In this document: in pieces, positions 45,832 to 62,800 of the stretch
Numbering within the stretch: position 1 is the first letter of the stretch
Layout: every line of letters starts with the position of its first letter
Notes under the pieces: generated by a model
The model's input: the letters and a program-made list of their open reading frames with translations, nothing else
What the model was told of the DNA's origin: nothing
Databases searched by the model: none
Made by a program: the position numbers and the translations under genes
Assembly (NCBI GenBank): GCA_964556485.1
Contig: CAZKVV010000004.1
Coordinates: forward strand, 57,618 to 121,617
DNA: 64,000 nt
Direction: 5' to 3'
From: an uncultured Pseudomonadales bacterium
GTDB lineage: Bacteria > Patescibacteriota > Microgenomatia > UBA1400 > PJMF01

Positions 45832-47019
45832 GTGCTATTTGAGTACAATAAGCTTGTGCCAATAGATATGCCAATACCCATCCCACCTGAAGATGAATTA
45901 CTTTATCGTTATTGGGATTTTTTTGGAAATAAGCCTATTGACCCAAGTAAAGAGGCTCAAAAAATTACTGTTGAGTTCTCTTTACAAGAAAAAGTGCTCT
46001 TAAAAGCACTGATTGCATATTTTGAAAACAGAGAAGAAAGAAAATCTGCTTTGAGTATAGTCATAGGGTATGATTTAGATTCTCAAGAGAGGACTCGTAC
46101 CCACGATGTTTCTAATGTGACTAATGAGAAAATTAATGAAATAGTTACTCATCATAAACAGAATCCAACTGAAGCAGCTCTTTTTTTAAGACAAGCTTTA
46201 ACAACTATTTTTAATGATCCCATGATTTCTTCCACTACAAAAAAAACAGATCGCTTAACTCGTTATTTGCAGTCCAGTTTAACCTTGCAAGTTAAGTTGG
46301 ATAGATTAAGCTTTTTGCCCAGTGACAAAGTGATAAACAAAGTGCCAAGCTATGTACCTGATGGTTTAAGTGATATGGGTGGGGATCCTACTATTAATCC
46401 ATCTGAAAGAGAACGGGAAAAAATCCGAGTTGATAAAGCTAAGATATTTTCTAAATACTCAGCTCAGCTTACTAAGCTTTATTTGGAAATCTCAAACTCT
46501 AAGTTGGATCCGGATGACTTGAAAATTCAAGGCTACATTGCTGAAAGAGTTTCTCATATGGTTTATGAAGCATTACCGTATGACCGACAGTGCAGAGCTG
46601 GAATTGAAGGTGCATTCTTAGGCAGATCAATAGGTGTTGATGATATCCATGATAAAAAAATGGCAGTATGTAGACATCATGCCCTTGAAACCCAAGTGTT
46701 GCTTCAGGCTATGGGAATTCAAGCTCAGCTCTTTAAATGTAATGTGCAATTTGGAAATGGTCGATTTGGAGGTCATGCTGCAAATTTGGTAGAACTAGAT
46801 GGTGAATGGTTTATTTTAGATACAACCAATCCTGAAGCGATTGATCGTAGTGCAAAAGTGTATTTGAAAAAAATAGATGGCGTTACACAAAATCCTTATA
46901 GCGATGGCGAGGAACACACCTATGTAATGGATCAAAACTCAGATGCGCAGAGAACATACGTGTTGAGGGATAAAATGTATTACAGAGTTCGTGATAATAA
47001 AAATAATAGATTAAATTAA
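45832..47019 (+). CDS. Hypothetical protein with C-terminal transglutaminase-like (Cys-His-Asp) domain
   Basis: MAVCRHHALETQVLLQAMGI (Cys), GGHAANLVELDGEWFILDTT (His/Asp). GTG start at 45832 or ATG at 45868. Confidence 0.5.
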   Translation: MLFEYNKLVPIDMPIPIPPEDELLYRYWDFFGNKPIDPSKEAQKITVEFSLQEKVLLKALIAYFENREERKSALSIVIGYDLDSQERTRTHDVSNVTNEKINEIVTHHKQNPTEAALFLRQALTTIFNDPMISSTTKKTDRLTRYLQSSLTLQVKLDRLSFLPSDKVINKVPSYVPDGLSDMGGDPTINPSEREREKIRVDKAKIFSKYSAQLTKLYLEISNSKLDPDDLKIQGYIAERVSHMVYEALPYDRQCRAGIEGAFLGRSIGVDDIHDKKMAVCRHHALETQVLLQAMGIQAQLFKCNVQFGNGRFGGHAANLVELDGEWFILDTTNPEAIDRSAKVYLKKIDGVTQNPYSDGEEHTYVMDQNSDAQRTYVLRDKMYYRVRDNKNNRLN

Positions 47020-48840: not shown

Positions 48841-49482
48841 TTACATTTCATGGTATGGATACGTTATTGGAGAAATCAAAAATGAGATATTGCTTGTGTG
48901 TTCAGAGACATTGTCAACAAAACTGGTAACACAACCAGTGGGTAAATGTAGTTGTCCGGCAGCTACCACTTTTTTACATTGTAATTGCTCTAATCTATTT
49001 GCAATATCTTCGTAAGTAAGACCAGCATCTGGATTTGGACTCGTTTGTGTTGTTGGATACCAAAGTATTGTTCCAGAAAAACCTAAAGCCCTAAGCAAGT
49101 CAAAGCTTTTCTTTTGATATCTTTTCTCTTCACCCACAAGCAATACAGGTACTGCTTTGAGCATATTTTTAAGACGTGAGAAATACCCCATTGAGTTAAT
49201 ACGACTTCTAGATTGTTCAGGTATAAGCAATCGCTGGTTACCTTTGGGCAACTCATAGCCAAATCCTGTTTCTTGTTGTTGAAATGTGTTGATAAGCTCA
49301 TCGATCCCTAATGTATTTAGGTTTTCATCCTTAATTTGCATGTAGAACGGGTGAATAAGTGCAAGCAGAATTCCTGATTTACTTGCAATTTCTGCTTGTA
49401 ATTGAGGTACTGCTGCTTCGAATGTCTGAATATCATTCAAAGAAATTTCAGTTTGAATATGTGGCCGTAACTTTTCGTTCAT
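48841..49482 (-). CDS. Hypothetical protein (213 aa), last gene of the large minus-strand operon
   Basis: ORF 17 nt downstream of the ABC exporter gene. No recognised motif. Confidence 0.45.
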   Translation of the reverse strand: MNEKLRPHIQTEISLNDIQTFEAAVPQLQAEIASKSGILLALIHPFYMQIKDENLNTLGIDELINTFQQQETGFGYELPKGNQRLLIPEQSRSRINSMGYFSRLKNMLKAVPVLLVGEEKRYQKKSFDLLRALGFSGTILWYPTTQTSPNPDAGLTYEDIANRLEQLQCKKVVAAGQLHLPTGCVTSFVDNVSEHTSNISFLISPITYPYHEM

Positions 49483-49499: not shown

Positions 49500-51389
49500 C
49501 TATGCTACTAGATCCCATTCTCTGAGTTTCTCAACATCTCCAGATTGAATTTTGAATAAACTAGCGTATAAATCGTCTCGCTTCATTAACTCTGCGTGAG
49601 TGCCTTGCTCAAGAATTTTTTGTTCTTTGAAAACAATAATATTATCAGCTCTTTGTATTGTTGAAAGCCTATGGGCAATAATAATTGCTGTCCGGTTGGA
49701 GAGCAATTTCTTTAATGCTTGCTGAATATACATTTCAGATTCTGAGTCTAAGGCGCTGGTAGCTTCATCTAAAATAATTATTTTAGGATCGCGAAGAACC
49801 GTGCGAGCTAGTGACAATCGCTGTCTTTGGCCGCCAGATAACTTTACACCGCGCTCACCAATAATGGTTTTCAATCCTTCGGGGAGTTGAGAAATAAACT
49901 CATCTGCATGTGCTACTTTGCAGGCATCCAACATTTCTGCTTCAGTAGCAGTAGGTTTTGCATATCGTAAATTTTCTTCAATTGTTTCGGCAAATAAATT
50001 TGAATCTTGGCTTACTAATCCTAAATGCAAACGCAAATCATGTTGCTTCATTTCTCTAATATCCACGCCATCAAGCATAATTGAACCTTCTGATACATCG
50101 AAAAATCTCATGATTAAACTGGCAATGGTAGATTTGCCAACTCCGGATGGACCAACTAAAGCAGTAGTTTTATTTGGTTCAATAGTAAATGAAATGTCAT
50201 CGAAAACTTTGAGATTTTCAATCCTAGATGGTTTAACTTCCCGTCCTTTATTAATTTCAGAGTCAAACTCAACAATTTGTTGTGGTTCATAAATAAAGGA
50301 AACATTTTTGAACTCAATTTTGCCTTCAACAGTTTTCAAAGTTACTGGCTTACTGGGGTCAGTAACACGAGGTTGGATGGAAATAATTTTCATGAAATCT
50401 TTAGCACCAATTTGTGCACGTTTAATTTCCCAAAAAATCCAGTTAATTTGCCAGAGTGGTCCACGAATGAGCTGAATTAGTCCGACAAGTAATATCAATG
50501 TTCCCACTGTAATATCTCCCAGCCATGTTAAATACACGATGTATGCGTACATGCTCCAACTGAAAGCTTCTAAAATTAGGTCAGCGCTCACAGCTTTAAA
50601 ACTGTTCCACTGCATTTGGGTACGTAGCGCTAAGTATTCTTTGAAAAAAGCAATGAATTTTTTACGTTCAAAATCTTCCGAACGAAAGGCTTTTATAAGC
50701 TGCATTGAACTAATGACTTCAAAGAAGTGACTATATTGTTCATCGTATAGTTTGTATTCTTGTCTTTCTAAGACCTCATCTTTCTTAAAACGCCAACGAC
50801 TAATGAGGGCGTAAGGAATAAAAGCTATAACAGTTAAAATGGCAACTCTCCATTCATGAAAAACCACAATGCTAAAAGCAACTACGGCAGTGGTAATACT
50901 TGGCAAAGAGTGAATTCCAAAATTACTGACTATTCCAGAGAGTCTGTTTACACCTCTGTCTAACTTGCTCATAACTTTGCCACTTGGCTGGTCATGAAAA
51001 AAATCGAGTGAGAGTCTCATTAAGTGATCAAAACCAATTTGTTTGAGATGCGATTCGAGTTTAACCGAAAATATGTTTGTTATAAAAAAGGAAGTCGCGT
51101 TGAGAATACTTTGAATGATTTTAACCGTAAGTAGGATAAGTAAGGTTGTAAAAATACTTGACCATGCAATACTCGCTTCTTTTTCCACTAAGATGTCGGT
51201 AATTTCTTTTGTAATAAATGGTTCGACCTGATTCAATCCTGCCATAACCACAATTAAAAGTGTTATTGTCAGTAACATTTTCCAATATGGTTTTGCAAAT
51301 GACATTGCACTAAGAAACATAGTTGTGATTTCCGCTATACAATTCCAAATAATGCTTGGAGTTATACCTACACTATACACTTGCTTCAC
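49500..51389 (-). CDS. ABC transporter, fused permease/ATPase (type I exporter, MsbA/bacteriocin-exporter-like, no C39 domain)
   Basis: Six TM helices plus NBD. Walker A GPSGVGKST, signature LSGGQRQRLSLAR, Walker B IIILDEATSALD. Confidence 0.85.
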   Translation of the reverse strand: MKQVYSVGITPSIIWNCIAEITTMFLSAMSFAKPYWKMLLTITLLIVVMAGLNQVEPFITKEITDILVEKEASIAWSSIFTTLLILLTVKIIQSILNATSFFITNIFSVKLESHLKQIGFDHLMRLSLDFFHDQPSGKVMSKLDRGVNRLSGIVSNFGIHSLPSITTAVVAFSIVVFHEWRVAILTVIAFIPYALISRWRFKKDEVLERQEYKLYDEQYSHFFEVISSMQLIKAFRSEDFERKKFIAFFKEYLALRTQMQWNSFKAVSADLILEAFSWSMYAYIVYLTWLGDITVGTLILLVGLIQLIRGPLWQINWIFWEIKRAQIGAKDFMKIISIQPRVTDPSKPVTLKTVEGKIEFKNVSFIYEPQQIVEFDSEINKGREVKPSRIENLKVFDDISFTIEPNKTTALVGPSGVGKSTIASLIMRFFDVSEGSIMLDGVDIREMKQHDLRLHLGLVSQDSNLFAETIEENLRYAKPTATEAEMLDACKVAHADEFISQLPEGLKTIIGERGVKLSGGQRQRLSLARTVLRDPKIIILDEATSALDSESEMYIQQALKKLLSNRTAIIIAHRLSTIQRADNIIVFKEQKILEQGTHAELMKRDDLYASLFKIQSGDVEKLREWDLVA

Positions 51390-53047
51390 CGCAAATCACA
51401 AAACATTTTATTTTTGAATGCTTCGTTTCTATCCCCCCAATATTTCTCGATAAAGTTGCGGAATTCTTTATCTTCTGAGTGTGAGAGACTATGCACTCTA
51501 AGGTTGCTTAATTCATTTAGTATAACAGGCAGCTGGGACGATAATCTCAGTCCAATATGTGATAAAACTATGCTCAATCGATATATTTCTTCTCTATTTC
51601 TAGATTCATAAGTATCAAGAACTAGATTTGTTTTGGCAGATAACAAGGTATGTAGTTGTTTTAAGTATTCAATCATATCTTTTTGCATTCTCGTTAGGGT
51701 TAATCTTTCAAGCCTTGCGAATTTTTCCTCAATTTCCAAGCATTTTTGTTGCAATTGTTCTTTAGCTAGGGCAACAAATTCGCCCAACTGATGGTTTGGA
51801 ATATCTAGGCTGCAAAAGTGAGCTAGGGTTTCTTCAAAATATTGAATTCCAAGCGCATCTCTAGAAATACCCACTAAAATTTCATCTAATCGATTCGTTC
51901 GTTCTTCATCATTCCATTCCGAGTCATCACCATAGATCTCACCAGAATTTGTCATAATAGGCTGCATAAAAATGATTTTATGATCAAGAAATCGTCGTAT
52001 TTCATTTCTACTTTCGTTTTTATCACTTTTAATTTTTAAGTACATCCATATTGAATCGAACATAAACAATCGACCATCTTGGATGGGCAATTCAAAATTT
52101 CCTGTTCGATTTATTGGTGTTGCTGCTACCATTGAAACTGAGCGAGAATTATCTGGTGAGAGAACAACCCCATCTAAACAAGCGGGTGAACCAATATCTT
52201 CCATTGCATCTTGTCGTTCTAAATTCTTTCCTACAAGCTGAAGACCTTTGCCACTTTTTGCATCTTTCGGTTTCACATCAATCATCTGTTTCATGAGAAA
52301 GTTAACATGATTTTTTGATAATCCACGTTCATATAATTTTTTTTCAATCAGCGCTAAACACACTTCTGCTCTTTGTGCATTGTGCCCACTAATGCTGAGG
52401 TTTATTTTGGTTGGACAAGAATAAGTTTCAATCGAAATGTCAACAATTCTTAGTGCCAAATCCACAAATACATCTTGAGAGCCAGTCGGTAAAGATGTAT
52501 TAATTGTTCTAGTCATCACGGGGCATTTGACTAATAGAAGTTGGTATACATCCAATGCAGTTTTCTCACCATCTCGATAATCTAAAAAATCGGTGTTGAA
52601 ATACGGATAGACTTTGTAAGGAGCATTGTCTTGAATTTGTTGTCCATATTTTGTAAAGAATGCTTGCATGGAATTAAAACTAAATGTATGAGTGATTCCC
52701 CTCGGTTTTTCGCCTAAGAAGCAATAACTACAACCGCCATTACATCCTCTGGTAAATTCAATTGCAACAATATTTTTTAAGATAAATTCTTTTGTTGAGT
52801 CGTCAAAATTTTCAAATGTTTTCAGTAGATCAATATGTTTTACGCGCTCTGCATTAGCACTGTGTTCTGGCTGTAAAAACCACATCTGTTCTAATGCAAC
52901 TCTAGCTTCATTTCGGACACCTTCGTCAAAACTTCCCGACATTGCCAGTAGATCTTGTTTACCAGCCTTTGGACTCACGCCCCACTCCATCATCATGAGG
53001 AATTCTGTTGCTAGTTGGGGGTTTACCTCACTGAGATCATTACACAT
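51386..53047 (-). CDS. Radical SAM enzyme (553 aa, non-SPASM), function unknown
   Basis: CxxxCxxC cluster motif in AIEFTRGCNGGCSYCFLG. 4-nt overlap with the ABC exporter gene. Confidence 0.7.
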   Translation of the reverse strand: MCNDLSEVNPQLATEFLMMMEWGVSPKAGKQDLLAMSGSFDEGVRNEARVALEQMWFLQPEHSANAERVKHIDLLKTFENFDDSTKEFILKNIVAIEFTRGCNGGCSYCFLGEKPRGITHTFSFNSMQAFFTKYGQQIQDNAPYKVYPYFNTDFLDYRDGEKTALDVYQLLLVKCPVMTRTINTSLPTGSQDVFVDLALRIVDISIETYSCPTKINLSISGHNAQRAEVCLALIEKKLYERGLSKNHVNFLMKQMIDVKPKDAKSGKGLQLVGKNLERQDAMEDIGSPACLDGVVLSPDNSRSVSMVAATPINRTGNFELPIQDGRLFMFDSIWMYLKIKSDKNESRNEIRRFLDHKIIFMQPIMTNSGEIYGDDSEWNDEERTNRLDEILVGISRDALGIQYFEETLAHFCSLDIPNHQLGEFVALAKEQLQQKCLEIEEKFARLERLTLTRMQKDMIEYLKQLHTLLSAKTNLVLDTYESRNREEIYRLSIVLSHIGLRLSSQLPVILNELSNLRVHSLSHSEDKEFRNFIEKYWGDRNEAFKNKMFCDLR

Positions 53048-53049
53048 TT

Positions 53050-53247
53050 TTATGCATCCCTCTTGATCATGCGCAGCTCAATCTCAGCCATTTTTTTTAT
53101 AGCATTCACCATTTGCCTAACGTATTCTTCTTGATTTGGGCAAAGCTTTTCTGTCTTCTGTTTAGGTTTGTAAGTTTGATTCATATAGTGTGATATCACA
53201 CTCTGATTTTTTTGAGAAAAATCGGAGTCATTTTTAGTTGTCCACAA
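53050..53247 (-). CDS. Small ORF (65 aa) translationally coupled to the radical SAM gene, possible precursor or accessory peptide
   Basis: TTG start 9 nt after a GAAGG. Its stop lies 2 nt before the rSAM ATG and the rSAM RBS AGAGGGA sits inside its 3' end. C-terminal amphipathic helix. Confidence 0.35.
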   Translation of the reverse strand: MWTTKNDSDFSQKNQSVISHYMNQTYKPKQKTEKLCPNQEEYVRQMVNAIKKMAEIELRMIKRDA

Positions 53248-53268: not shown

Positions 53269-56200
53269 TTAAGCAGCATCAATCAATTGTTCAACCCTCT
53301 GTCGTTGTTCATATTCGCCGATTTTTGGCAAAACAACTAGCTTCACGGCATTTTTAACACTTTTTTGATCAAACTCCTCTAAGTCGAAGATGATTTCTTC
53401 GGTTTCACGCTGAGTGAATACAAACTCTACGATGTCGTTTGATTCATTTCGTTGATAAGCGCGGTAAGCTTGACGTACTTTGTTTGCAATTCTTACTAAG
53501 AGGTCTAAGGCACTAATGGCTTGTAACCGCTCTGGCGTAGCGAATATATCTCCGCCATTAACCGCATCACCATTAACCGCATGGTTCCACAACTTCGTAA
53601 ACTCCTCCTTATTGAGTGTTCTCAAATCCTCAGCTCGTTGAGCAAGAATGAAGGCTTCGTCAGGACGTTTTCTGACCTTTGTGAATCCTTCAGTTGATTT
53701 GCCACTTGGGACTGTTTGAGTTTCAACATTAACTCGCTCGTACTCTCCATTAACTTTTTCAATCACGTTGTAAGGTTGGTAATCTACTTCTATCACTCTG
53801 GCACGGCTCTTAAACTCTTGTGCCAATGGCTGAGTACCAATATAGTTTTCTGGATTCATGGTGCCAATGAGCAAATTATCTGGATGTACTTCAATCTTTT
53901 GTCCGATGCCATTGGTGTTAAGCTCAACATAATCAGGGTCTTCACCTTGAGTGAAGTACAACGTGCGGCGGTAGTCAAAAACCGAGTTTAACATTTTAGT
54001 TACTTCTGCAGGCATGGCGTTAATTTCAATCAAGTTGATAATTACACCAGGTTTAGAGAGAGCTTCAGCAAACTTAGCGGGTACGCGATAAGTGCCTTTC
54101 TTGGGATCGAATCTGAACTCTGAAGTAAGATCCTCGGGGTCCATTGTTTTGCGACAGGGAATATTAACTACTTCGTAATTTGTTAAGGCTCCAAATGCGT
54201 CAATATTAAAGTCTTTGCCCACACCAGCGTCACCTTGCATGATTAGCAATCCTCTTGGAGTTCTCACTCGGTTCAGTTGTTTATCCAAACCCAACTGTGC
54301 TCGCAAGTTACGCGCCATATTACCGAGTACTTCTAAAGTGTATTCGGTCATCCTAAGTTCGCGACTAAGTGGAGGAACTTCACGTTTGGGATTAAAGTGC
54401 GTTTCCGCACGAGCTTTAGCTTTTTGATAACGAGGATCACTGTCGTCGACCCTCATATTCATGTAGACACCACTGCGCCAAATCCCAGCATTCTGACTCT
54501 CGAAAGCTAGTTCACCTTTATACTCAGCTCTTTGGTCGGCAGTAAGTTTTGAGAAGTCAATTTTCTTACCATCTGTACCCCAAACGATGGGCGTTACCCA
54601 TCCTGGAGAGAAGAGTATCTGGCGATCCCTGAATGTTGGGAATGCTTCACCAGCTAGTACTCTAACTTTCTCGCGCTCTATTGTTTTAGTCGCTTCTTTT
54701 TCTTGTTCGAACCGCTGAACTCTTTCCCGAAGGAGAGAAAGATACTGTTGATCATAATCAGCACGGCGACTCTCAGGAAGATGATTGATCAACTGTCTAA
54801 CACGTTCAGAGCGTGGATGGTTAAATGCCCATGCTTCAAGATTAATTCTACCCTCAGTCTCACCCAAGACCGCATCAATATCTTCCTGAAGTTCGCGTAA
54901 AGCCTCGGCTATCTCTCGAACAACTTCCTCAACTCTTGCTTCTTGTTCTCTTTTTCTTTCATCTGTTTTTGTCTGAATCTCTGAGCGTTTCTTCTGGCGG
55001 ATCTCACCCCAAGCAACTCTCAAGCGTCGTCTTTCTTTAGCATCGGTAACGAGATTTAATCTAGAGTTAAACCGTTCGACGACAGGATCTTTCTCCAACT
55101 CACTTAATTCGTTGATGCTCAGCGCTGGTTGAATAGCGGCTTCCATTTCCGACAACATCCCTTCCAAAGAAGTGACGAGTTGGCCTTGGAACTCCTTCTG
55201 TAATTCAACAATTCTTTCGGAGGAATGCTCAAGGCTTGTTTGAACTTTATTTCTCAAATCACCTTCTAGCACCTGCAGGTTTGCTGACTGCCGCATTTGA
55301 CGAACTTCTTCAAGCCTTTGCGCTACAGCAATGCTTTGTTCTATGGTTGTTGCCAGGCGGACACGTTGTTCCAAATCCTCAACAGCTTCCACTAAGACCT
55401 TTGCCTTAAACTCGTTTCTTCTTCTTTCAAAAGCTTGTTGCACTGTGGCAAAAGCTTCTGGGTACTGCTGATAGGGGTCTTTTTTTCTTAAAACTGAGAG
55501 CTTTGCCTCTAGTTTAAGCAGAGCTTGTTCATCGGTTGCTGACTGAACTAATGGTAAAAATTCTCCCTCTAATTTAACCTTCAGAGCTTCCTTAATATCG
55601 TCATTACTGACTGTTTTTTCTTGTTTTCTCTGTAGTGCAGTTACCTTTTCTTCGAGATCATTCGCAACAATATTATCTATGTCTAATTGTTCGATCTCTG
55701 AAAGTAGTGCCTTCATCTTCTGTCGTTGCTCTTCTAACATTCGCGACATTTGCTCGGGATCAAACTGAGCAAAGTTGGTGGTAATAATTCTTAGTTGGTT
55801 GTTGTCGTCAACAAAGTAGAGATTGCCAGCCTTATCTGCGCCAACATTACTTTTAATTCCTGCAAATGCGTAGTGTTTAGTCCGAGATTTCTTATCGAAA
55901 ATAGTTAGCTGATTATCACCATGCTTAACAATAAGAAAATTGCCTCGAGGATCCATAATTACTTGTTGGATATTGTCTACATCGAGCAAATCAATTGTTT
56001 CCGAATTAAGAAAACCGCTTTCCATGCCAGTTAGTGAAAACTTATGAAGTTTTCCATTCTCCGTAAAATAAACAGTATCACCATCTGAAGGATCGAGCAC
56101 AGGGCGAGGATCAGACAATGCTCTAATTTGTCGCTCAAAGCCACTTTCATTTTTGTTATAGATTCGGGTTATTGTCTGACCATCAGACACTGCATAAATA

Positions 56201-56895
56201 CCTGTTTTATTCTTAAATAGTGGCAAAACTTCGCTTGGAGATTTTTTCCAGTTTTTTAGGTCAGGTCCATCGACAGCCAGTGCAACCGCCTCACCCATAA
56301 TTTCGAGTGTGACAATATTACCATCCACCGACATTACTGTTGTTGGTCTTTTAATTAACTGCTCGTCACTAACCATACCGATATGATGATCTTTTAAATC
56401 TGAGGGTGATAAAAACCACGAATCAACAGTTTTTTTTTGACTCAAACTAGTCTGTTGAAGTATCTTAACTGCAAGTTTCTGAATTTCTTCTCTATCCTTT
56501 GACGCATCTAGCCCGGGAACAAATTGGGCAATTATTTTATTAAGATTCACTCCGCCAAATTGTTTAACAAAAGCCTCTGTTCCGATAAAATTTCTGTCGC
56601 TTGTTTTTAATGCTACTAAAGCTAATTGAATAATTTTTCGGCATGTAAAGCTTGTCCTGATGTTTGGAAAAATTTCTTCCAAACTCTTCATCTGACCCTG
56701 TGGAGAAATAACGACTATGTGAGAGCTAGTACTTTTTGAAGCAAAAACCCATCCATTTTCAAGAACAGCCACCGATGATAAGTCTGTGTTTGTTTCTGAT
56801 GCTGATGTCTTGAAATAATCTGGAGAATGAAGGATGGTCTGTGGTGCAGGAACTTTTGTTTCATGCAAATTTTTGTTAAATTCTGTCATATTCAT
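53269..56895 (-). CDS. Giant protein: beta-propeller-like N-terminal region, ~500-aa coiled coil, C-terminal dynein-related AAA_5 (MoxR-like) ATPase domain with degenerate Walker motifs
   Basis: LLIMQGDAGVGKD (Walker A with Lys-Asp), VIINLIEINAMPAEVTKMLNSVFDYRRTLYF (AAA_5 llDEiNla...r region with IE for DE), LLIGTMNPENY...SRARVIEV (sensor1/Arg). Long heptad-like E/R/K/Q-rich stretch at aa ~370-800. Confidence 0.65.
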   Translation of the reverse strand: MNMTEFNKNLHETKVPAPQTILHSPDYFKTSASETNTDLSSVAVLENGWVFASKSTSSHIVVISPQGQMKSLEEIFPNIRTSFTCRKIIQLALVALKTSDRNFIGTEAFVKQFGGVNLNKIIAQFVPGLDASKDREEIQKLAVKILQQTSLSQKKTVDSWFLSPSDLKDHHIGMVSDEQLIKRPTTVMSVDGNIVTLEIMGEAVALAVDGPDLKNWKKSPSEVLPLFKNKTGIYAVSDGQTITRIYNKNESGFERQIRALSDPRPVLDPSDGDTVYFTENGKLHKFSLTGMESGFLNSETIDLLDVDNIQQVIMDPRGNFLIVKHGDNQLTIFDKKSRTKHYAFAGIKSNVGADKAGNLYFVDDNNQLRIITTNFAQFDPEQMSRMLEEQRQKMKALLSEIEQLDIDNIVANDLEEKVTALQRKQEKTVSNDDIKEALKVKLEGEFLPLVQSATDEQALLKLEAKLSVLRKKDPYQQYPEAFATVQQAFERRRNEFKAKVLVEAVEDLEQRVRLATTIEQSIAVAQRLEEVRQMRQSANLQVLEGDLRNKVQTSLEHSSERIVELQKEFQGQLVTSLEGMLSEMEAAIQPALSINELSELEKDPVVERFNSRLNLVTDAKERRRLRVAWGEIRQKKRSEIQTKTDERKREQEARVEEVVREIAEALRELQEDIDAVLGETEGRINLEAWAFNHPRSERVRQLINHLPESRRADYDQQYLSLLRERVQRFEQEKEATKTIEREKVRVLAGEAFPTFRDRQILFSPGWVTPIVWGTDGKKIDFSKLTADQRAEYKGELAFESQNAGIWRSGVYMNMRVDDSDPRYQKAKARAETHFNPKREVPPLSRELRMTEYTLEVLGNMARNLRAQLGLDKQLNRVRTPRGLLIMQGDAGVGKDFNIDAFGALTNYEVVNIPCRKTMDPEDLTSEFRFDPKKGTYRVPAKFAEALSKPGVIINLIEINAMPAEVTKMLNSVFDYRRTLYFTQGEDPDYVELNTNGIGQKIEVHPDNLLIGTMNPENYIGTQPLAQEFKSRARVIEVDYQPYNVIEKVNGEYERVNVETQTVPSGKSTEGFTKVRKRPDEAFILAQRAEDLRTLNKEEFTKLWNHAVNGDAVNGGDIFATPERLQAISALDLLVRIANKVRQAYRAYQRNESNDIVEFVFTQRETEEIIFDLEEFDQKSVKNAVKLVVLPKIGEYEQRQRVEQLIDAA

Positions 56896-56919
56896 TCACA
56901 TTATTAACTATTACTTTTT

Positions 56920-59235
56920 TTATTGGCCCTGCCTAAGTCTTTGACCTATTCTTCTCAAAATTGGCGTCATCACTCTCCTGGTTTCTATCGTCAGTTGACC
57001 CATGTTTTCGGGAATTATTACTCTATCTTCCCCAAAATATGTGTCTAAGCCAGCTTTTATTCGTTGCTTTTCATCCCGACTATTGGATAGACCAAAAGCG
57101 AAAAGCTCAAATACCTTTTTGATCTCGTCGATTTTTTCTACTAACGGTTGGCCGGTCAAACCACTGTTTGGTTCACCGTCTGTAAGAAACATAATAACAC
57201 CCTGTGAACCAGGAAATCTACGTCTTGAAGCGAGCAATTGTTCGTAGGCACTCACTACACCAGCTTCGTAGTTGGTACTACCATGCAATGATTTCGTTTG
57301 AGCAATGAGTTTGGCCTTAATTCGTTGTTCAGGAGAGGAGAATGGTTGATTAGGGTTTTTAAGCACTGATGAATTAGAACCCATAGTAATGATTCCAGAT
57401 GGAATGTTGTACTTCTCACACAACATCATCCACAAAATAAGATCTTTTAAAGATTCGTCTAACTTAGCGCCATGCATGCTGCCCGTAATATCGATAACAA
57501 ACCAAATGAATGTTTCAATTTTTTGCGATAATTCAATATCCTTTCTTGTATTAAAGCGACTGTCTCCAACGGGGAATTTACGAGCTGCCTGACGAGCGTC
57601 AGGTCTACCCGAATAGAAATAACCTTGCTGAGTCATGATCCACTCACGAGGGAATGCTTTCATCACTTGCTGATCCATCGATCTGAAATCAGCCATCATT
57701 TCGCGTTCCAACTCCTTGTATCGATCGTAGTTACCCTCTTCATCTTCTCTAAAACCAGCCTCTCTCATTTCGCGAAGTTTTCGTTCTTTTTGCTCGCGAG
57801 CTTTTTGTTTGGCTTCCTGTTTTTGTTGCTCAGCTTGTTGTTGTTGTATGTCGTGTTGTTCACGCTGTTGCTCTTCTTTCTCAAACTCTTCCAATTCCTT
57901 CTGGGCTTTTTCCACTTCTTTTTGATCAGCTGTTTGAATCTTTGGCTTGAATTCACCAGTTTCTTCATCTTGCTCCATCTGTATCATCTGTGGTGCTTCT
58001 TTATTAAGCTTTTCACTTTGTTTTTGATCGGTTTGTTTGCGAGCATCTTCTTCAAGTTTTTCTAATGCTTGAGGATTAAGATTTTTCAAAAAAAACTCCA
58101 GTTGCTCGCGTGTTTCAGTAGAGAGTTCATTCAAATCCATCTCACACTCACTTGTTTCTGGATTTTCTCCTTGGCTTCCCGGTCGTTGCTCATCAGGTTG
58201 AGCGCTAGATTGCCCCTCTGACTGTTGAGAACTTTGCAAGCCGCTTTGTCGTCCGGATTGTGATTGTTTAGATTGGCTAGAGCTTTGGCTTCCTTGCTGC
58301 ATTTCCTGTTTGATCTTTTGTTTCAAATCTTCAGGAAGTTGAGGTTGTCCGCTGCCACCCCGTCCATCTTGACCCTCATTGCCTTGCCGACCCTCCATGG
58401 CTTGTTGAGCCATATTCCTTTTTACTTGATCCTCAACTTCTTCCTTCTCGAGGTCTCTTACTTGCGGCCAAATCTCTTCAGAAAATGTGTGGAAATTTTC
58501 CAGTGCAGACTTACTGGCGTAAAAACGATCAAGTGCTGGTCGCACTTTATCCATAACTGCTTGTACTCGCTCGTCTATACTAGGCAAGTCTTGGCCTGTT
58601 AACCAGTAATTGATAGCGTTAACACCAAACTGACGTGGTAGGGGATCATGAGGAATCTGGGTGGCAATTTCCTTAAGTTTACGCAAGTACCCACGTTTTA
58701 GATCTTCAAGCGCCGCTTGGGATTCTCCGGCAGACATGGCGTTAACCCAACCATCTTCGGGACCATTAAGCAGCGATCCATAGGTCGATGGTAGGAATCC
58801 TTGTTCCTTAGCCAATCTCATCCCTTGAAAAAAGAATTTGAAATCTGAGTGAGCAGCGTGGGCAGCCTCGTGTCTTGTTTTCCTGGTAATTTCTATCTCA
58901 GGATCACGGTATAAATCGTTCTTTCTAAAAGTGATGAGATTGGGAACTAAAGCCTGAGGAGGCAGGTGATCTAGATTGTCAATTTTACCACAAATATATG
59001 CATCAACAGCTTGAGCGTATTCTGGGTCAATACCACAAGTCCATGGTCCTTCGCCATCTAGTGCCGCAATCTTAAGGTCATAACGACCACTGAAAACCCT
59101 TGAAAGCCATGAAATCTGTTTCATTACCCTTCGAATTTCTTCCGGCGATCGCCTTTCATCATCTAATAGTTTGTTTTCAGATATAGATGAAGGGCTAATA
59201 GCCTCACCCGGCATACGGGAGATTTTTTCAGACAT
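56920..59235 (-). CDS. vWA (MIDAS) domain protein with N-terminal HExxH zincin-like domain and central Q/E/K-rich coiled-coil linker (DUF2201-like architecture)
   Basis: HEAAHAAH near aa 110. About 250 aa of low-complexity QQ/EE/K repeats. C-terminal FVIDITGSM (DxTxS MIDAS) ... FLTDGEPN vWA fold. Confidence 0.7.
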   Translation of the reverse strand: MSEKISRMPGEAISPSSISENKLLDDERRSPEEIRRVMKQISWLSRVFSGRYDLKIAALDGEGPWTCGIDPEYAQAVDAYICGKIDNLDHLPPQALVPNLITFRKNDLYRDPEIEITRKTRHEAAHAAHSDFKFFFQGMRLAKEQGFLPSTYGSLLNGPEDGWVNAMSAGESQAALEDLKRGYLRKLKEIATQIPHDPLPRQFGVNAINYWLTGQDLPSIDERVQAVMDKVRPALDRFYASKSALENFHTFSEEIWPQVRDLEKEEVEDQVKRNMAQQAMEGRQGNEGQDGRGGSGQPQLPEDLKQKIKQEMQQGSQSSSQSKQSQSGRQSGLQSSQQSEGQSSAQPDEQRPGSQGENPETSECEMDLNELSTETREQLEFFLKNLNPQALEKLEEDARKQTDQKQSEKLNKEAPQMIQMEQDEETGEFKPKIQTADQKEVEKAQKELEEFEKEEQQREQHDIQQQQAEQQKQEAKQKAREQKERKLREMREAGFREDEEGNYDRYKELEREMMADFRSMDQQVMKAFPREWIMTQQGYFYSGRPDARQAARKFPVGDSRFNTRKDIELSQKIETFIWFVIDITGSMHGAKLDESLKDLILWMMLCEKYNIPSGIITMGSNSSVLKNPNQPFSSPEQRIKAKLIAQTKSLHGSTNYEAGVVSAYEQLLASRRRFPGSQGVIMFLTDGEPNSGLTGQPLVEKIDEIKKVFELFAFGLSNSRDEKQRIKAGLDTYFGEDRVIIPENMGQLTIETRRVMTPILRRIGQRLRQGQ

Positions 59236-59462
59236 GTTTTTATAGTATCAAAGTATGGGTGAAACTTACACGAATAGATCAAACGCGATTTTTTTAATAA
59301 GCCCATTACAGGTCTGTTAAATTGAAAATGTTTAAAATGAGGAAATTTAGCAAGCCCTGCCAACCCATTTGGCGGTATTAGACGGGTCTGTTAGAACTTT
59401 TCAACTGTTGCGGAGCACCCGGGTCTGGAACCTTTTTATCCTAATACTGAACTATGTAAGCT

Positions 59463-59657
59463 CTAGTCGTTTTCCAGCCATGGACCCTCTTTAATGATGT
59501 TCCTAAGAATTTTCATTTGTTGAACTGATAGTTTTAGTAACTCACCTAAATCTTTTTTGAAATCTTCATTAATAGCTATTTCTTGAAGAGATTCATATTT
59601 TTGAGCCAATCTAGATTCAGCTGCTAATGCTTCAGCGATGTCTGCAATGTTTGCCAT
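59463..59657 (-). CDS. Small helical protein (64 aa), hypothetical
   Basis: ATG ORF MANIADIAEALAAESRLAQKYESLQEIAINEDFKKDLGELLKLSVQQMKILRNIIKEGPWLEND. RBS AAAGGAG 6 nt upstream. Flanked by TCTGTTAGAAC direct repeats. Confidence 0.4.
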   Translation of the reverse strand: MANIADIAEALAAESRLAQKYESLQEIAINEDFKKDLGELLKLSVQQMKILRNIIKEGPWLEND

Positions 59658-59862
59658 AACAAGCTCCTTTCATATGTTAATCTAATTATAGATCACTGTA
59701 GTTTGGATCATCGGATGCGGAGACTAAGGAACTCTGTTAGAACCTGGTTTAAGTCCTCAGATCTAGACGGATTTTACATATACTCGCCATCCTTTGCATA
59801 GATTCAAGTTTATTTTAACTGGTTAGTCTTAATATTGGACACTTCGCACACGGGTTTGTGGA

Positions 59863-62800
59863 CTAAATCAGATAAAATGTGTGTACTGTCTTGGAACTTG
59901 AAATCTGGAATGAATGACTGATTCTTGCTTCAGGTTTATAAAATCTTAAGGCTAAATACTTATCAACTCCCTCGCCAACTCGATTTGTTAATGGATGCCA
60001 ACTGTCTTGTTCAGGAATCATCACCTGAGAGATTCCATTGTCTGCTGCGATCTGCATAACCATATCAACCATCTGATCGCATAAAACTGCAGTATTTGTC
60101 GAAGAAATAATACTAGAAGATGGATTGAAGCCTCTGAAAATCAAAGTTGGTTGATTATCAACGGTTGTTTGATATCCTTGAATATTCCCTACAACAATAC
60201 CTTGATTATTGACTAAATTAACATGAAAATGATCTGGTCGGTGATATAACTCTATATCATGAGCCGTACACACTCCTGCAGTAGTCTTCGCAAAATATGA
60301 GGCTGCGTTTTTTGTAACATATCCAGTTAATATTAAGGTTGGGTCAACCTCTTGCCCCGCTTTATCTCTAAGTACAACTTTTCCTAATTCTGTTTCTACA
60401 CGCTTCCTCAGTCCTTTTGATCCAGAAAACATTGTTCTTTCAGTCATGAATGCTAAAAGTTTGGCTAAGTGCTGGCGTTTTTCAACAACGGACTTATTTT
60501 CGCGTAAACCAGAAATAATTGATGCAAAAGAGGCTTTTTCCTCTTCTCTCATTATCCTTGATCCACCAATATTTTTCTCCAAAGTTGCAAGTTTTTTCTC
60601 AGTCAACATACTGAGCAAACGGTCAGACACCATTGGATTTTCATCTAAAAACTTTGCGACTGCTTCACCTGCATTATCTTTATAATAAACCCCAAATAGT
60701 TCTTTAGCTTTTGATAAAAGGTTATTTTTATCAGCAACTTGAGAAGTGTCTCCAGTCATTTTTTCTGTATATTGATCAATTTTATCTCCGAGCGATACAC
60801 GCAAGCATGCAATCACTTCTTGTAGAGAGGATGTAAATAAATCCTCAGTTTTGGTTGCACCTGCCTCGGTTAATAATCGAGTCCAGCCTTTTAAAGCCAT
60901 CGCAGTATCACCACCAGAGGCAATGTAATCAGACGTTTGTTCGTTTCTAAATATGACTTTAACTAAATTAACAACTCCTTCGTCAACTGGTTTGTCCGCA
61001 CTTCTTAATTCAGCTACTTTTTCTTTTGAAGCAATGCTTCCTCGATATCCACTCTCTCGAAAATGCATTCCACTAATATCATCACAATGATCACCAACTC
61101 TAGCTAGCTCTAACCTAACAGAATTAACATCTGTACTTGGAAATGTTAAGCAAATCATTTCAGCCATGAAGTCTATGCCACTACTTCCACTCGTTAAATC
61201 CATAAGTGGCACATTCCTATGAACATTTTTACGGAATGCTTTTACCCTATCCCTGTGATTTTCCCTAGAAAGCTCATCTGCTTCTAATATGTAACCCCTA
61301 ACTAATGATGGTGTGATATTTCTAAACTCTTCCATTGCTTCCAAAAGACGCTCTGTGTATAAGGGGTTAGTCATGATTCTAGCAACATCTTCGCCTGAAA
61401 TTGTCTGAAACGTTGTTACACAGCTATTAAAACTAGTGGGTTTGGTGTTTAGCATCCTTTTAAAGAATCTGGCGTACCCATCTTGTTCTAGGTTAGCTTG
61501 TAACCAATCTAATGACGACTTCGTTGTATAAAAAACATTTTGACTATTCAAGCCAATTGTCGCCCCCAATTGATGTAAGTAAGCTGGCCGAACTTGAGAC
61601 AAAATTTGATTGGTTTGAGGATTTTGTACTAAACTCCTAAATCGGTCGAAATCTGTTAATTTCCAGCCTGCGGACATCATGTGAGCCGACAAAACTCCGT
61701 TTTGCTCCCAATATGAGGCTCTATCTGGAATTAAAGCATCATATTTAGGATCGTTTGATTGGTCATGAAATCTTGCCAATGTTTGGATATATTCGACTGA
61801 TAATTCAAACCCATACGCAACTGCAAATGGCGCTATAAATGAATTACTCAGATTCCCGTTTTCAGCTAAGTCTTGTGATAGTGCATCATACACGTCATTA
61901 AAATGACGCGCACACATGTCTTTATCATTTTGTATTCCAATTATTAAACTTGCTCTAATTTCGCGTTTTTCAGCATTGTTGAATGTGGAAGCATCAAGAT
62001 TGTAGTCGGCGAGAAAACTTTGTGGCTGTTCTTTGGCAATTAGTCCCACTAAAGCAGATGTGGCTTTATGATCATCGACAAGAGTATTAAATATTTCTTT
62101 TTTGCCTATTAGTACTTTTTTAAGATATCCTTTCGCTCCCTTCCAATATCTCCAGTATTTCTGTGTTTCTTCTGGCATTTGTTCTAATGCCTGCTCAGTG
62201 ACCAAAGAGGCAAGAGTGTCTAACTCAACAGTCTGGCTTGTGGACAATTCTGTCAATAAATGTTCAGACGCCGATCCATTTACGACATACGTATTAATTT
62301 CTTCTCTTCTTTCTAGTATGAATCCATGCAACTCGTCCTCGTCATGTTGTCGCCAAAAATCCCAAAAGACCTTTCCTTCAGCCGTCATTCCTGCCAACGC
62401 TTCGTCGGAAATTAATGATGTAATTAATCTGTCGCCGACCCGCAATCTGTCTGATACTAAATTCTCTAATAATAGCTCCGTCGCCACACCATTAACAACC
62501 AATAAATCAAAATTCGATCTTTGCTTGATTAGATAATCATGCAAAACGTCAGCATCATGTTTCTTCCAGAAGCCCCAAAATTTTTCCCCTTCATCGCCCA
62601 TGGATTCCAAAGCGTCCTTTGTGATCATCCATGTCGCTTCTCTGAATATATTTTCTTTATTTCTATTACGAATAGTGTCACGACCAGATGATTCGTCTGC
62701 ACCTGAAATTAATTCATCGAGCCATTTTTGGGTTGGCACACCTTTTTCATTGACATAAGAGTCTATGTTGAAATCAGCTTCTCCCCGATGCCTAGTTAAT

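What the first reader, a model, noticed from the sequence alone, without database searches (positions are those of the whole stretch)
49500..53247. RiPP-like module: a 65-aa ORF translationally coupled to a non-SPASM radical SAM enzyme, followed by an overlapping ABC exporter
The small-ORF stop lies 2 nt upstream of the rSAM ATG, and the rSAM Shine-Dalgarno sits inside the small ORF. The rSAM and ABC genes overlap by 4 nt. A small peptide gene followed by an rSAM maturase and an exporter is typical of ribosomally synthesised peptide modification loci. However, the candidate peptide has a single Cys and no GG leader, and the exporter lacks a C39 protease. It may therefore be an accessory or recognition protein instead of a substrate, or a new peptide class.
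Basis: inference. Interest (0 to 1): 0.65.

Follow-up and report, generated by a model that had tools for sequence, protein, structure and literature searches.

The report
Unannotated helical peptide paired with radical-SAM enzyme
A tiny unannotated gene and the unusual iron-sulfur "radical SAM" enzyme gene that follows it form a conserved two-gene unit in a few uncultured ultra-small microbes, probably a new peptide-modifying system, while the adjacent exporter gene is only a chance neighbour in this genome.

Summary
On the minus strand, a 65-aa ORF (53050-53247) stops 2 nt before a 553-aa CX3CX2C protein (51386-53047). That protein abuts a C39-less ABC exporter (49500-51389).

The small ORF is real and conserved. 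A 34-74-aa ORF lies within -26 to +5 nt of the enzyme's start in about 26 of 38 related lineages. dN/dS is 0.09-0.32. The shared feature is one amphipathic helix with a single invariant Glu. Searching from the peptide side leads back to the same enzyme family.

The enzyme belongs to a rare, uncurated radical-SAM family (223 clusters among 1.8 billion), annotated as "hypothetical protein". It has one Fe-S motif and one further near-invariant Cys, and no SPASM or twitch domain. Its only curated neighbour is the PoyD peptide-epimerase family, far below that family's cut-off. No solved structure matches the predicted fold.

The ABC exporter, the AAA/VWA genes and every other window neighbour are absent from all 51 related loci. 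The unit is therefore peptide plus enzyme, not peptide-enzyme-exporter.

My best reading is a new rSAM peptide-modification pair with the peptide as substrate (about 0.45). The main rival is that the peptide is a non-substrate subunit (about 0.3). The chemistry is unknown.

The parts
53050..53247 (-). Small ORF of 65 aa (TTG start; alternative ATG at codon 22). It is lysine/glutamate-rich, has one Cys, and is not called as a gene in the public protein collection searched.
   Evidence: Homologous ORFs lie in the same position in about 26 lineages. dN/dS is 0.09-0.32. Neither form is in the public protein collection.
53062..53124 (-). The conserved part of the peptide: an amphipathic helix (residues 42-62, YVRQMVNAIKKMAEIELRMIK). 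It contains the only invariant residue of the peptide family, Glu57 (codon 53077-53079).
   Evidence: In the alignment A5 of 20 peptides from different lineages, E57 is the sole invariant column. The main-clade consensus is I..LL..L[YF]x[KR]E[DEN][EN][YF]F.
53057..53064 (-). Shine-Dalgarno sequence (AAGAGGGA) of the rSAM gene. It lies inside codons 62-64 of the small ORF, and a 2-nt gap separates the stop from the ATG.
   Evidence: Read directly from the sequence. In relatives, the distance from the peptide stop to the enzyme start is always between -26 and +5 nt.
51386..53047 (-). A 553-aa divergent radical-SAM enzyme with three predicted domains: an N-terminal helical domain (about residues 1-92), a beta/alpha core (about 93-330) and a C-terminal all-helical domain (about 343-553).
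   Evidence: The CX3CX2C motif is invariant in 51 of 51 relatives. Pfam Radical_SAM is hit by 33 of 51 relatives, best E-value 1.6e-8, but the window protein itself scores only 15.3 bits against a cut-off of 29.5. The AF2 model has pLDDT 91 and pTM 0.89.
52721..52744 (-). [quoted passage not shown]
52178..52180 (-). The codon of Cys290 in the [ST]PAC.DG loop. It is the only other Cys conserved across the family (45 of 51 once one misaligned row is counted). It is a candidate catalytic thiol.
   Evidence: One tandem paralogue in L024 lacks it.
49500..51389 (-). MsbA/HlyB-type half-size ABC exporter with no C39 peptidase domain. It is adjacent here and possibly co-transcribed, but it is not a conserved partner of the cassette.
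   Evidence: tblastn finds no homologue in any related locus. The start is ambiguous: GTG at 51389 or ATG at 51320.

Best explanation
The functional unit is a translationally coupled two-gene cassette.

Gene 1 encodes a 34-74-aa basic peptide. Its only conserved element is an amphipathic helix of about 20 residues with one invariant glutamate.

Gene 2 encodes a radical-SAM enzyme of about 550 aa with a single [4Fe-4S] cluster. It carries one extra near-invariant cysteine and is flanked by two helical domains.

I propose that the peptide is the enzyme's dedicated substrate (inferred). The helix would dock on the enzyme. The 5'-deoxyadenosyl radical would abstract a hydrogen from a peptide residue in or next to the helix. 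The substrate radical would then be resolved without an auxiliary cluster, most simply by hydrogen return from Cys290, as in proteusin-type epimerases. That would yield a stereo-inverted or otherwise singly modified peptide.

The product is probably not a classical secreted bacteriocin, because no protease or exporter travels with the cassette. In this genome the neighbouring ABC exporter may have been recruited, or it may be unrelated.

Shown: the conserved pairing, the coupling, selection on the peptide, the rSAM motif, and the absence of SPASM.

Inferred: that the peptide is the substrate, the site of modification, and the chemistry.
For: 1. Pairing. A homologous small ORF sits directly upstream of the enzyme gene in about 26 of 38 non-redundant lineages, with enzyme identity down to about 23%. 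The junction is always between -26 and +5 nt.
2. A search starting from the peptide returns a new peptide variant. In all 3 places shown for it, a gene follows 4 nt downstream. The 560-aa product in L049 is a family member, 30% identical to the window enzyme, E 1e-41. A 560-aa gene follows in L051 and a 353-aa one in L050, neither compared.
3. The peptide is under purifying selection, with dN/dS 0.09-0.32 and synonymous sites near saturation. It has one invariant Glu in 20 of 20 sequences.
4. In L024 the peptide and enzyme were duplicated together. The two peptides are 81% identical and the two enzymes 56%.
5. CX3CX2C is invariant, and 33 of 51 relatives hit Pfam Radical_SAM.
6. The only curated family that recurs is the RiPP epimerase family PoyD. 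It is hit by 24 of 51 members, and it is the sole hit for 5 of 10 outgroup proteins, up to 2.3e-15.
7. Like proteusin epimerases, the family has one cluster and one conserved Cys. The review PMC8326336 (read) describes PoyD as having only the rSAM cluster and a single strictly conserved Cys372 as H-atom donor.
8. Cys counts are as low as 4 per protein, which excludes auxiliary clusters.
Against: - There is no direct evidence of modification.
- The peptide lacks a leader/core organisation, a cleavage motif and a conserved modifiable residue other than Glu. The window clade has even lost the aromatic residues that are conserved elsewhere.
- Tight 1:1 translational coupling and one peptide gene per enzyme gene are more typical of subunits than of RiPP precursors.
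- 6 of 51 enzymes, including one L024 paralogue with a nearly identical peptide, lack Cys290.
- The similarity to PoyD covers only the cluster-binding half of the core and is far below that family's cut-off (21.9 and 56.5 bits against 325).
- No RRE-type peptide-binding domain was detected by sequence.
- About 12 distant homologues have no upstream peptide.
Confidence: 0.45

Rival explanations
1. The small protein is not a substrate. It is an obligatory accessory subunit of the radical-SAM enzyme, for example a helix that completes the C-terminal helical bundle, or a basic adaptor that tethers the enzyme to RNA, the ribosome or another protein. The enzyme then modifies a different, unlinked target.
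For: - Start/stop overlap conserved across the family implies 1:1 synthesis.
- Only a docking-type amphipathic helix is conserved, and its one invariant Glu could pair with the invariant Arg396 or Arg226 of the enzyme.
- The N-terminal parts are lysine-rich.
- There is one peptide gene per enzyme gene, and the L024 paralogue peptides are more conserved than their enzymes.
- No protease or exporter is conserved.
- 18 of 51 members give weak hits to MiaB/RimO-type methylthiotransferases.
- L011 and L021 place the cassette among aminoacyl-tRNA synthetase genes.
Against: - The distribution is patchy and rare: 223 clusters among 1.84 billion representatives and 6 hits in 185,579 species genomes. 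That fits an accessory function better than housekeeping modification of a universal target.
- No fused peptide-enzyme form exists among 150 representatives.
- The MiaB/RimO hits are weak and confined to the core.
- Known small ORFs next to rSAM enzymes are overwhelmingly substrates (general knowledge of rSAM RiPP systems, not tested here).
Confidence: 0.3
2. The cassette is a conflict or addiction module of the accessory genome, either toxin-antitoxin-like or anti-phage. The radical-SAM enzyme would be the effector and the small helical protein its inhibitor or sensor.
For: - The cassette sits in variable contexts next to HepT/MNT pairs, Fic, AbiEii, RHH, GIY-YIG and T4SS-type genes in L021, L022 and L049.
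- The two-gene overlapping architecture and the patchy phylogenetic distribution, including a MAG labelled Micrarchaeota, fit this idea.
Against: - No PADLOC model matches the enzyme.
- There are no relatives in phage, plasmid or IMG/VR collections.
- TA and Abi genes are abundant throughout CPR genomes, so proximity is weak evidence.
- Other loci, such as L001, L007 and L023, show no such neighbours.
Confidence: 0.12
3. The full first-reader model: a secreted RiPP locus in which the peptide is matured by the rSAM and exported by the overlapping ABC transporter.
For: - The genes lie on the same strand.
- The overlap is 4 nt if the GTG start is used, and no terminator-like site lies between the genes.
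- The exporter is of the MsbA/HlyB type, which can carry peptides.
Against: - The ABC gene is absent from all 51 related loci, including the closest ones at 62% and 53% enzyme identity, where the downstream gene is an Exo_endo_phos protein or a convergent gene.
- The ABC start is ambiguous.
- There is no C39 domain, no GG motif and no other protease.
Confidence: 0.08
4. The small ORF is a chance ORF, or merely a regulatory upstream ORF whose product has no function.
For: - It is not annotated in the source record or collection.
- It has a TTG start.
- A 16-nt palindrome and a hairpin lie inside its 5' part.
Against: - dN/dS is 0.09-0.32.
- The Glu and the helix pattern are conserved across lineages whose DNA is saturated with changes.
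- A profile built from the peptides finds copies that were not used to build it, in L024, L033 and L008.
- The leader RNA is no more structured than shuffled sequence, z = -0.35.
Confidence: 0.03

Closest known systems
Proteusin-type radical-SAM peptide epimerases (PoyD/OspD/AvpD; NCBIfam TIGR04517)
   Same: This is the only curated family that recurs in searches with family members and with their outgroups. The cluster motif sits about 100 residues from the N-terminus. Both have a single [4Fe-4S] motif, no SPASM domain, one conserved extra Cys and a substantial C-terminal non-catalytic domain. The PoyD features are taken from PMC8326336.
   Different: - Scores are 21.9 bits for the window protein and at most 56.5 bits for outgroups, against a cut-off of 325.
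- The alignment covers only the first half of the core.
- The C-terminal domain here is predicted to be all-helical, not an RRE.
- The partner peptide is a 34-74-aa K/E-rich helix, not a long NHLP/Nif11-leader proteusin precursor.
- 6 of 51 members lack the Cys.
SPASM/twitch radical-SAM RiPP maturases (AlbA, SkfB, CteB, PqqE, MftC, StrB, triceptide 3-CyFEs)
   Same: A small peptide gene lies directly upstream of an rSAM gene. The core motifs resemble the GGEP / TNG / ISxDG pattern (here DSDPFDY, ST.IP.GS and S.xxHN.QR; a comparison from memory). PqqA and MftA are likewise short precursors encoded immediately upstream of their maturase genes (from memory).
   Different: - There is no SPASM or twitch Cys motif, and only 4 Cys are conserved.
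- No RRE/PqqD-like domain or gene is present.
- The peptide has no conserved Cys, Tyr or Trp across the family, and the invariant residue is a Glu.
MiaB/RimO/MtaB methylthiotransferases (TIGR00089)
   Same: Weak core hits for 18 of 51 members, best E-value 3.8e-7.
   Different: There is no UPF0004 N-terminal cluster domain (no second Cys triad) and no TRAM domain. The hits are limited to the rSAM core.
Peptidase-containing ABC transporters (PCAT, bacteriocin exporters)
   Same: The window's ABC protein has the same TMD-NBD half-transporter architecture and gives sub-threshold hits to bacteriocin/NHLP exporters.
   Different: There is no C39 domain. The best matches are to MsbA-type models, and all are below their cut-offs. 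The gene is not conserved with the cassette.

Membership tests
Radical SAM superfamily (PF04055) | CX3CX2C motif for the SAM-binding [4Fe-4S] cluster | tested here: met
   CNGGCSYC lies at residues 102-109. The three Cys are invariant in 51 of 51 relatives.
Radical SAM superfamily (PF04055) | Score at or above the Pfam gathering threshold (29.5 bits) | tested here: not met
   The window protein scores 15.3 bits (E 0.024), matching only profile positions 1-20. However, 33 of 51 family members hit at E<0.01, best 1.6e-8, so the link to the superfamily is transitive.
Radical SAM superfamily (PF04055) | Partial (beta/alpha)6 TIM-barrel core | tested here: inconclusive
SPASM/twitch subfamily | C-terminal Cys-rich motif binding one or two auxiliary [4Fe-4S] clusters | tested here: not met
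   Only C102, C106, C109 and C290 are conserved. Eight of 51 members have just 4 Cys in total. There is no SPASM family hit above threshold.
PoyD-type RiPP epimerases (TIGR04517) | Score at or above the curated cut-off (325 bits) over the whole profile | tested here: not met
   The score is 21.9 bits, with residues 74-179 aligned to profile positions 100-206 of 446. The best E-value within the family is 6.3e-8.
PoyD-type RiPP epimerases (TIGR04517) | Single rSAM cluster plus one strictly conserved Cys acting as H-atom donor | tested here: inconclusive
   The single cluster and one near-invariant Cys (45 of 51) are present. Whether that Cys is positionally homologous to PoyD Cys372 could not be tested, and its role is not testable in silico.
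PoyD-type RiPP epimerases (TIGR04517) | Proteusin precursor with an NHLP/Nif11-type leader | tested here: not met
   The partner peptides are 34-74 aa and match no Pfam or NCBIfam family consistently.
RiPP biosynthetic locus (general) | Precursor peptide gene co-conserved with the modifying enzyme | tested here: met
   About 26 of 38 lineages show the pairing, and the reciprocal peptide-first search leads to the same enzyme family.
RiPP biosynthetic locus (general) | Leader (or follower) recognition region plus a core that carries the modified residues | tested here: inconclusive
   A conserved helix could act as the recognition element. No distinct variable core or cleavage motif is visible.
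RiPP biosynthetic locus (general) | Post-translational modification of the peptide demonstrated | not testable with these tools
   This needs expression and mass spectrometry.
RiPP biosynthetic locus (general) | Conserved protease and/or exporter | tested here: not met
   No window neighbour, the ABC protein included, has a homologue in the 51 related loci.
Peptidase-containing ABC transporter (PCAT) | N-terminal C39 peptidase domain | tested here: not met
   Pfam finds only ABC_membrane (residues 40-312) and ABC_tran (397-545).

The most novel reading that the evidence does not exclude
This is a previously unrecognised class of radical-SAM system confined to ultra-small episymbiotic prokaryotes (CPR bacteria, possibly DPANN archaea). 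A SPASM-less, RRE-less enzyme with a fold not represented in the PDB acts on, or strictly requires, a 40-60-residue single-helix peptide through an invariant glutamate. That would mean either new chemistry on a helix-embedded residue or the first rSAM enzyme with a mini-protein cofactor subunit.
Probability: 0.4. Interest if true: 0.72.

Novelty: new variant of a known kind. Interest (0 to 1): 0.55.

Why it matters
If the peptide is a substrate, this is a new rSAM-RiPP-like family from lineages with almost no characterised natural products. The enzyme's architecture has no auxiliary cluster, no RRE and new flanking domains, which would widen what is thought sufficient for peptide radical chemistry.

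If the peptide is a subunit, it would be an unusual case of an rSAM enzyme that depends on a mini-protein.

Either way, the result shows that an unannotated 65-codon ORF is a real gene. It also corrects the locus boundaries: the exporter and the AAA/VWA genes should not be used to infer function. The cassette is small enough (about 1.9 kb) to test directly by heterologous expression.

Tried and rejected
1. Word-indexed homologue search with the enzyme found only 5 proteins. Repeating it with the 51-sequence profile returned the same 5, so that search was wasted.
2. The first pattern scans of genome and metagenome collections with the 5-sequence alignment found nothing. The 51-sequence alignment had no usable conserved stretch. 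An 11-sequence alignment worked.
3. AF2 with 5 sequences gave a poor model, pLDDT 59. It was replaced by the 51-sequence run.
5. PDB sequence searches with the single protein and with the profile found nothing relevant.
6. PADLOC found no defence model for the enzyme or for the AAA, VWA or 1324-aa proteins.
7. There are no relatives in IMG/VR, INPHARED phages or PLSDB plasmids.
8. I considered an RNA element in the leader. The fold is not better than shuffles and there is no Rfam hit.
9. I considered transglutaminase-like neighbours as possible leader proteases, since they appear in the window, L001 and L011. The window's protein has no homologue in any related locus, so I dropped the idea.
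10. I considered a third conserved gene, the 121-aa protein duplicated with the cassette in L024. It is not found elsewhere.
11. I looked for natural peptide-enzyme fusions and found none.
12. Literature searches for rSAM, CPR and RiPP terms found no description of this family.


Full report
**1. Observation**

All the genes in the flagged stretch lie on the minus strand. In reading order they are:
- a 1324-aa ORF (59863-63837)
- a 771-aa VWA protein (56920-59235)
- a 1208-aa AAA_5 protein (53269-56895)
- the 65-aa ORF (53050-53247, TTG start)
- a 553-aa protein with C-N-G-G-C-S-Y-C at residues 102-109 (51386-53047)
- a 629-aa ABC exporter (49500-51389)
- a 213-aa ORF (48841-49482)

The small ORF's TAA (53052-53050) is separated from the next ATG (53047) by 2 nt. 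The AAGAGGGA Shine-Dalgarno of the enzyme gene lies inside the small ORF (53064-53057).

The ABC protein has ABC_membrane and ABC_tran domains only, with no C39 domain. Its 4-nt overlap with the enzyme gene (GTGA) depends on a GTG start. That start is the one on record. The first ATG, 69 nt downstream, fits MsbA-type profiles equally well.

**2. The enzyme**

The window protein hits no Pfam family at E<=0.01. At relaxed thresholds it gives only a 15-bit Radical_SAM match over the cluster loop and a 21.9-bit match to the PoyD epimerase family, whose cut-off is 325.

Word-indexed search found four relatives at 53-62% identity. A full HMMER scan of 1.84 billion representatives with their profile found 223 clusters at E<=1e-3 and 50 at E<=1e-30. 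Most are 500-650 aa and align over most of their length.

In a 51-sequence alignment the invariant residues are C102, C106, C109, D153, T184, G316 and R396. The motifs GCNG.C.[FY]C, DSDPFDY, ST.IP.GS, HN.QR and [ST]PAC.DG are strongly conserved.

Thirty-three of the 51 reach Pfam Radical_SAM (best E-value 1.6e-8). Twenty-four give weak PoyD hits and 18 give weak MiaB/RimO hits. None reaches a curated cut-off. Outgroup proteins from the tail of the profile search have PoyD as their only NCBIfam hit, up to 2.3e-15 and still only 56 bits.

Only one Cys outside the cluster motif is conserved: C290, in 45 of 51 once one misaligned row is counted. Some members have four Cys in total. An auxiliary SPASM or twitch cluster is therefore excluded.

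AlphaFold2 with the 51-sequence alignment gives a confident model (pLDDT 91, pTM 0.89). It has an N-terminal helical domain, an alternating beta/alpha core and a C-terminal all-helical domain of about 200 residues.

Foldseek finds no PDB chain below E 0.1. In BFVD it finds only weak matches, several of them to radical-SAM proteins. The few members that carry a name in public sources are called 'hypothetical protein', one of them from Candidatus Woesebacteria.

**3. The small ORF**

I recovered DNA around relatives from 51 loci. Wherever the enzyme is a full-length relative, a 34-74-aa ORF sits immediately upstream on the same strand. Its stop lies between -26 and +5 nt from the enzyme's start. 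That holds for about 26 non-redundant lineages. About 12 lineages lack the ORF, and most of those are the most distant relatives, whose match covers only the core.

Twenty such peptides align on a single amphipathic helix with exactly one invariant residue, Glu57 in window numbering.
- The main clade reads I..LL..L[YF]x[KR]E[DEN][EN][YF]F.
- The window clade is a divergent branch (KMAEIELRMIKRDA) that has lost the aromatic residues.

N-terminal parts vary in length and are K/Q/T/N-rich. C-terminal tails are short and often dual-coded with the enzyme's start.

dN/dS between orthologues or paralogues is 0.09-0.32, with synonymous sites near saturation. A profile built from the peptides detects copies that were not used to build it (L024 second copy, L033, L008) and finds only one copy in the window.

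A search starting from the peptides returned a new variant (P0168). A gene follows 4 nt downstream in all three contigs shown. The 560-aa product in L049 is 30% identical to the window enzyme, E 1e-41; the 560-aa product in L051 and the 353-aa one in L050 were not compared.

The peptides match no Pfam or NCBIfam family. They are never fused to the enzyme among the 150 listed representative proteins. The window's copy is not a called gene in the public collection.

**4. What does not belong**

tblastn with the window's ABC, AAA_5, VWA, 1324-aa, 213-aa, transglutaminase-like and other neighbouring proteins finds nothing in any related locus.

Downstream genes differ by clade:
- an Exo_endo_phos protein in the 53% clade (L001-L006)
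- a convergent gene in the 62% clade (L007, L009)
- other genes elsewhere

Contexts range from aminoacyl-tRNA synthetase clusters (L011, L021) to TA/Abi-rich stretches (L021, L049) and a T4SS-type region (L022). There are no relatives in phage, plasmid or IMG/VR collections and no PADLOC match for the enzyme.

The conserved unit is therefore the peptide-enzyme pair alone.

**5. Mechanism**

Shown:
- a translationally coupled pair
- protein-level selection on a single-helix peptide with an invariant Glu
- a single-cluster rSAM enzyme with one additional conserved Cys and two helical accessory domains

Inferred: the peptide is the enzyme's substrate and docks through its helix. The substrate radical would be resolved without an auxiliary cluster, most simply by H-atom return from Cys290.

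That matches proteusin epimerases, which also have only the rSAM cluster and a single conserved catalytic Cys (PMC8326336). They are the family's only recurrent curated neighbour. This is a 'works like' proposal. Membership of the PoyD family is rejected on score, on coverage and on the type of precursor.

Points against the proposal:
- the absence of a leader/core layout
- 1:1 coupling
- one peptide gene per enzyme gene
- paralogue peptides more conserved than their enzymes (81% against 56%)
- six members that lack the Cys

These points favour the main rival, a non-substrate mini-subunit or adaptor. A conflict-module reading is possible but weakly supported. The full peptide-maturase-exporter reading is rejected as a conserved system. 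A chance or purely regulatory ORF is rejected.

**6. Comparison and novelty**

The kind of system, a small peptide gene next to a radical-SAM enzyme, is well known. This enzyme family and this peptide family have no curated model, no solved structural relative and no description in the literature I could search. The architecture also departs from the characterised rSAM peptide maturases, with no SPASM or twitch domain and no RRE detected by sequence. I class it as a new variant of a known kind, of moderate interest. Its function is undetermined but can be tested directly.

**7. Verdict**

The peptide-rSAM pairing is real and conserved, the exporter linkage is not, and the choice between substrate and subunit remains open.
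- Interest: 0.55.

Noticed in passing
window 53187-53228: A perfect 16-nt palindrome (AGTGTGATATCACACT, 53187-53202) and an adjacent 13-bp imperfect hairpin (53200-53228) lie inside the window-specific N-terminal coding part of the small ORF. They could be an operator or an RNA element. The region as a whole folds no better than shuffled sequence (z = -0.35).
   Followed up: partly
L024 3526-8190 (metagenome contig Ga0074195_1000004, 995 kb): A three-gene unit is tandemly duplicated: a 42-aa peptide, an rSAM of 550 or 578 aa, and a 121-aa protein. The peptides are 81% identical and the enzymes 56%. The first enzyme copy has SPVRSDG in place of SPACSDG, so it lacks the conserved Cys. The 121-aa protein occurs in no other locus.
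   Followed up: yes
proteins P0033, P0042, P0044: Three representative clusters of about 915 aa fuse a class-I SAM-dependent methyltransferase domain (residues about 30-165) to the N-terminus of this rSAM family. This hints that methylation accompanies the radical step in some lineages. Their genomic context could not be fetched.
   Followed up: partly
window 53269-63837, minus strand: Directly upstream and co-oriented lie three genes. One is a 1324-aa protein with no Pfam hit. One is a 771-aa VWA protein with a long Q/E/S-rich acidic middle. One is a 1208-aa protein with an AAA_5 (MoxR/dynein-type) ATPase near its C-terminus, whose central sequence is rich in charged residues. Only 21 nt separate the AAA gene from the small ORF. 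None has a homologue in the related loci or in PADLOC.
   Followed up: partly
L021, L022, L049: In several relatives the cassette lies among toxin-antitoxin or abortive-infection type genes (HepT/MNT pairs, Fic, AbiEii, RHH, GIY-YIG) or next to a T4SS-DNA_transf gene. In L011 and L021 it lies within a run of aminoacyl-tRNA synthetase genes.
   Followed up: no
window 49500-51389: The start of the ABC exporter is ambiguous. The recorded GTG (51389) adds 23 residues that curated MsbA-type profiles do not cover. An ATG at 51320 would leave a 65-nt gap that contains a promoter-like match (51401-51372, minus strand), though such matches are no more frequent here than in shuffled sequence.
   Followed up: partly
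window 45832-47019 (+); L001 2599-3414; L011 5400-6389: Transglutaminase-like (cysteine-protease fold) proteins occur within 2-7 kb of the cassette in three loci. The window's copy has no detectable homologue in the other loci, so this looks coincidental.
   Followed up: yes
window 1-64000: GC content is about 39%. There are four tRNA genes (Val-CAC, Ser-TGA, Arg-GCG, Ser-CGA) and no other Rfam match. Every window protein I looked up is a singleton cluster with no name in the public collection, which fits a poorly sampled CPR-type genome. The closest named relative of the enzyme is from Candidatus Woesebacteria.
   Followed up: partly
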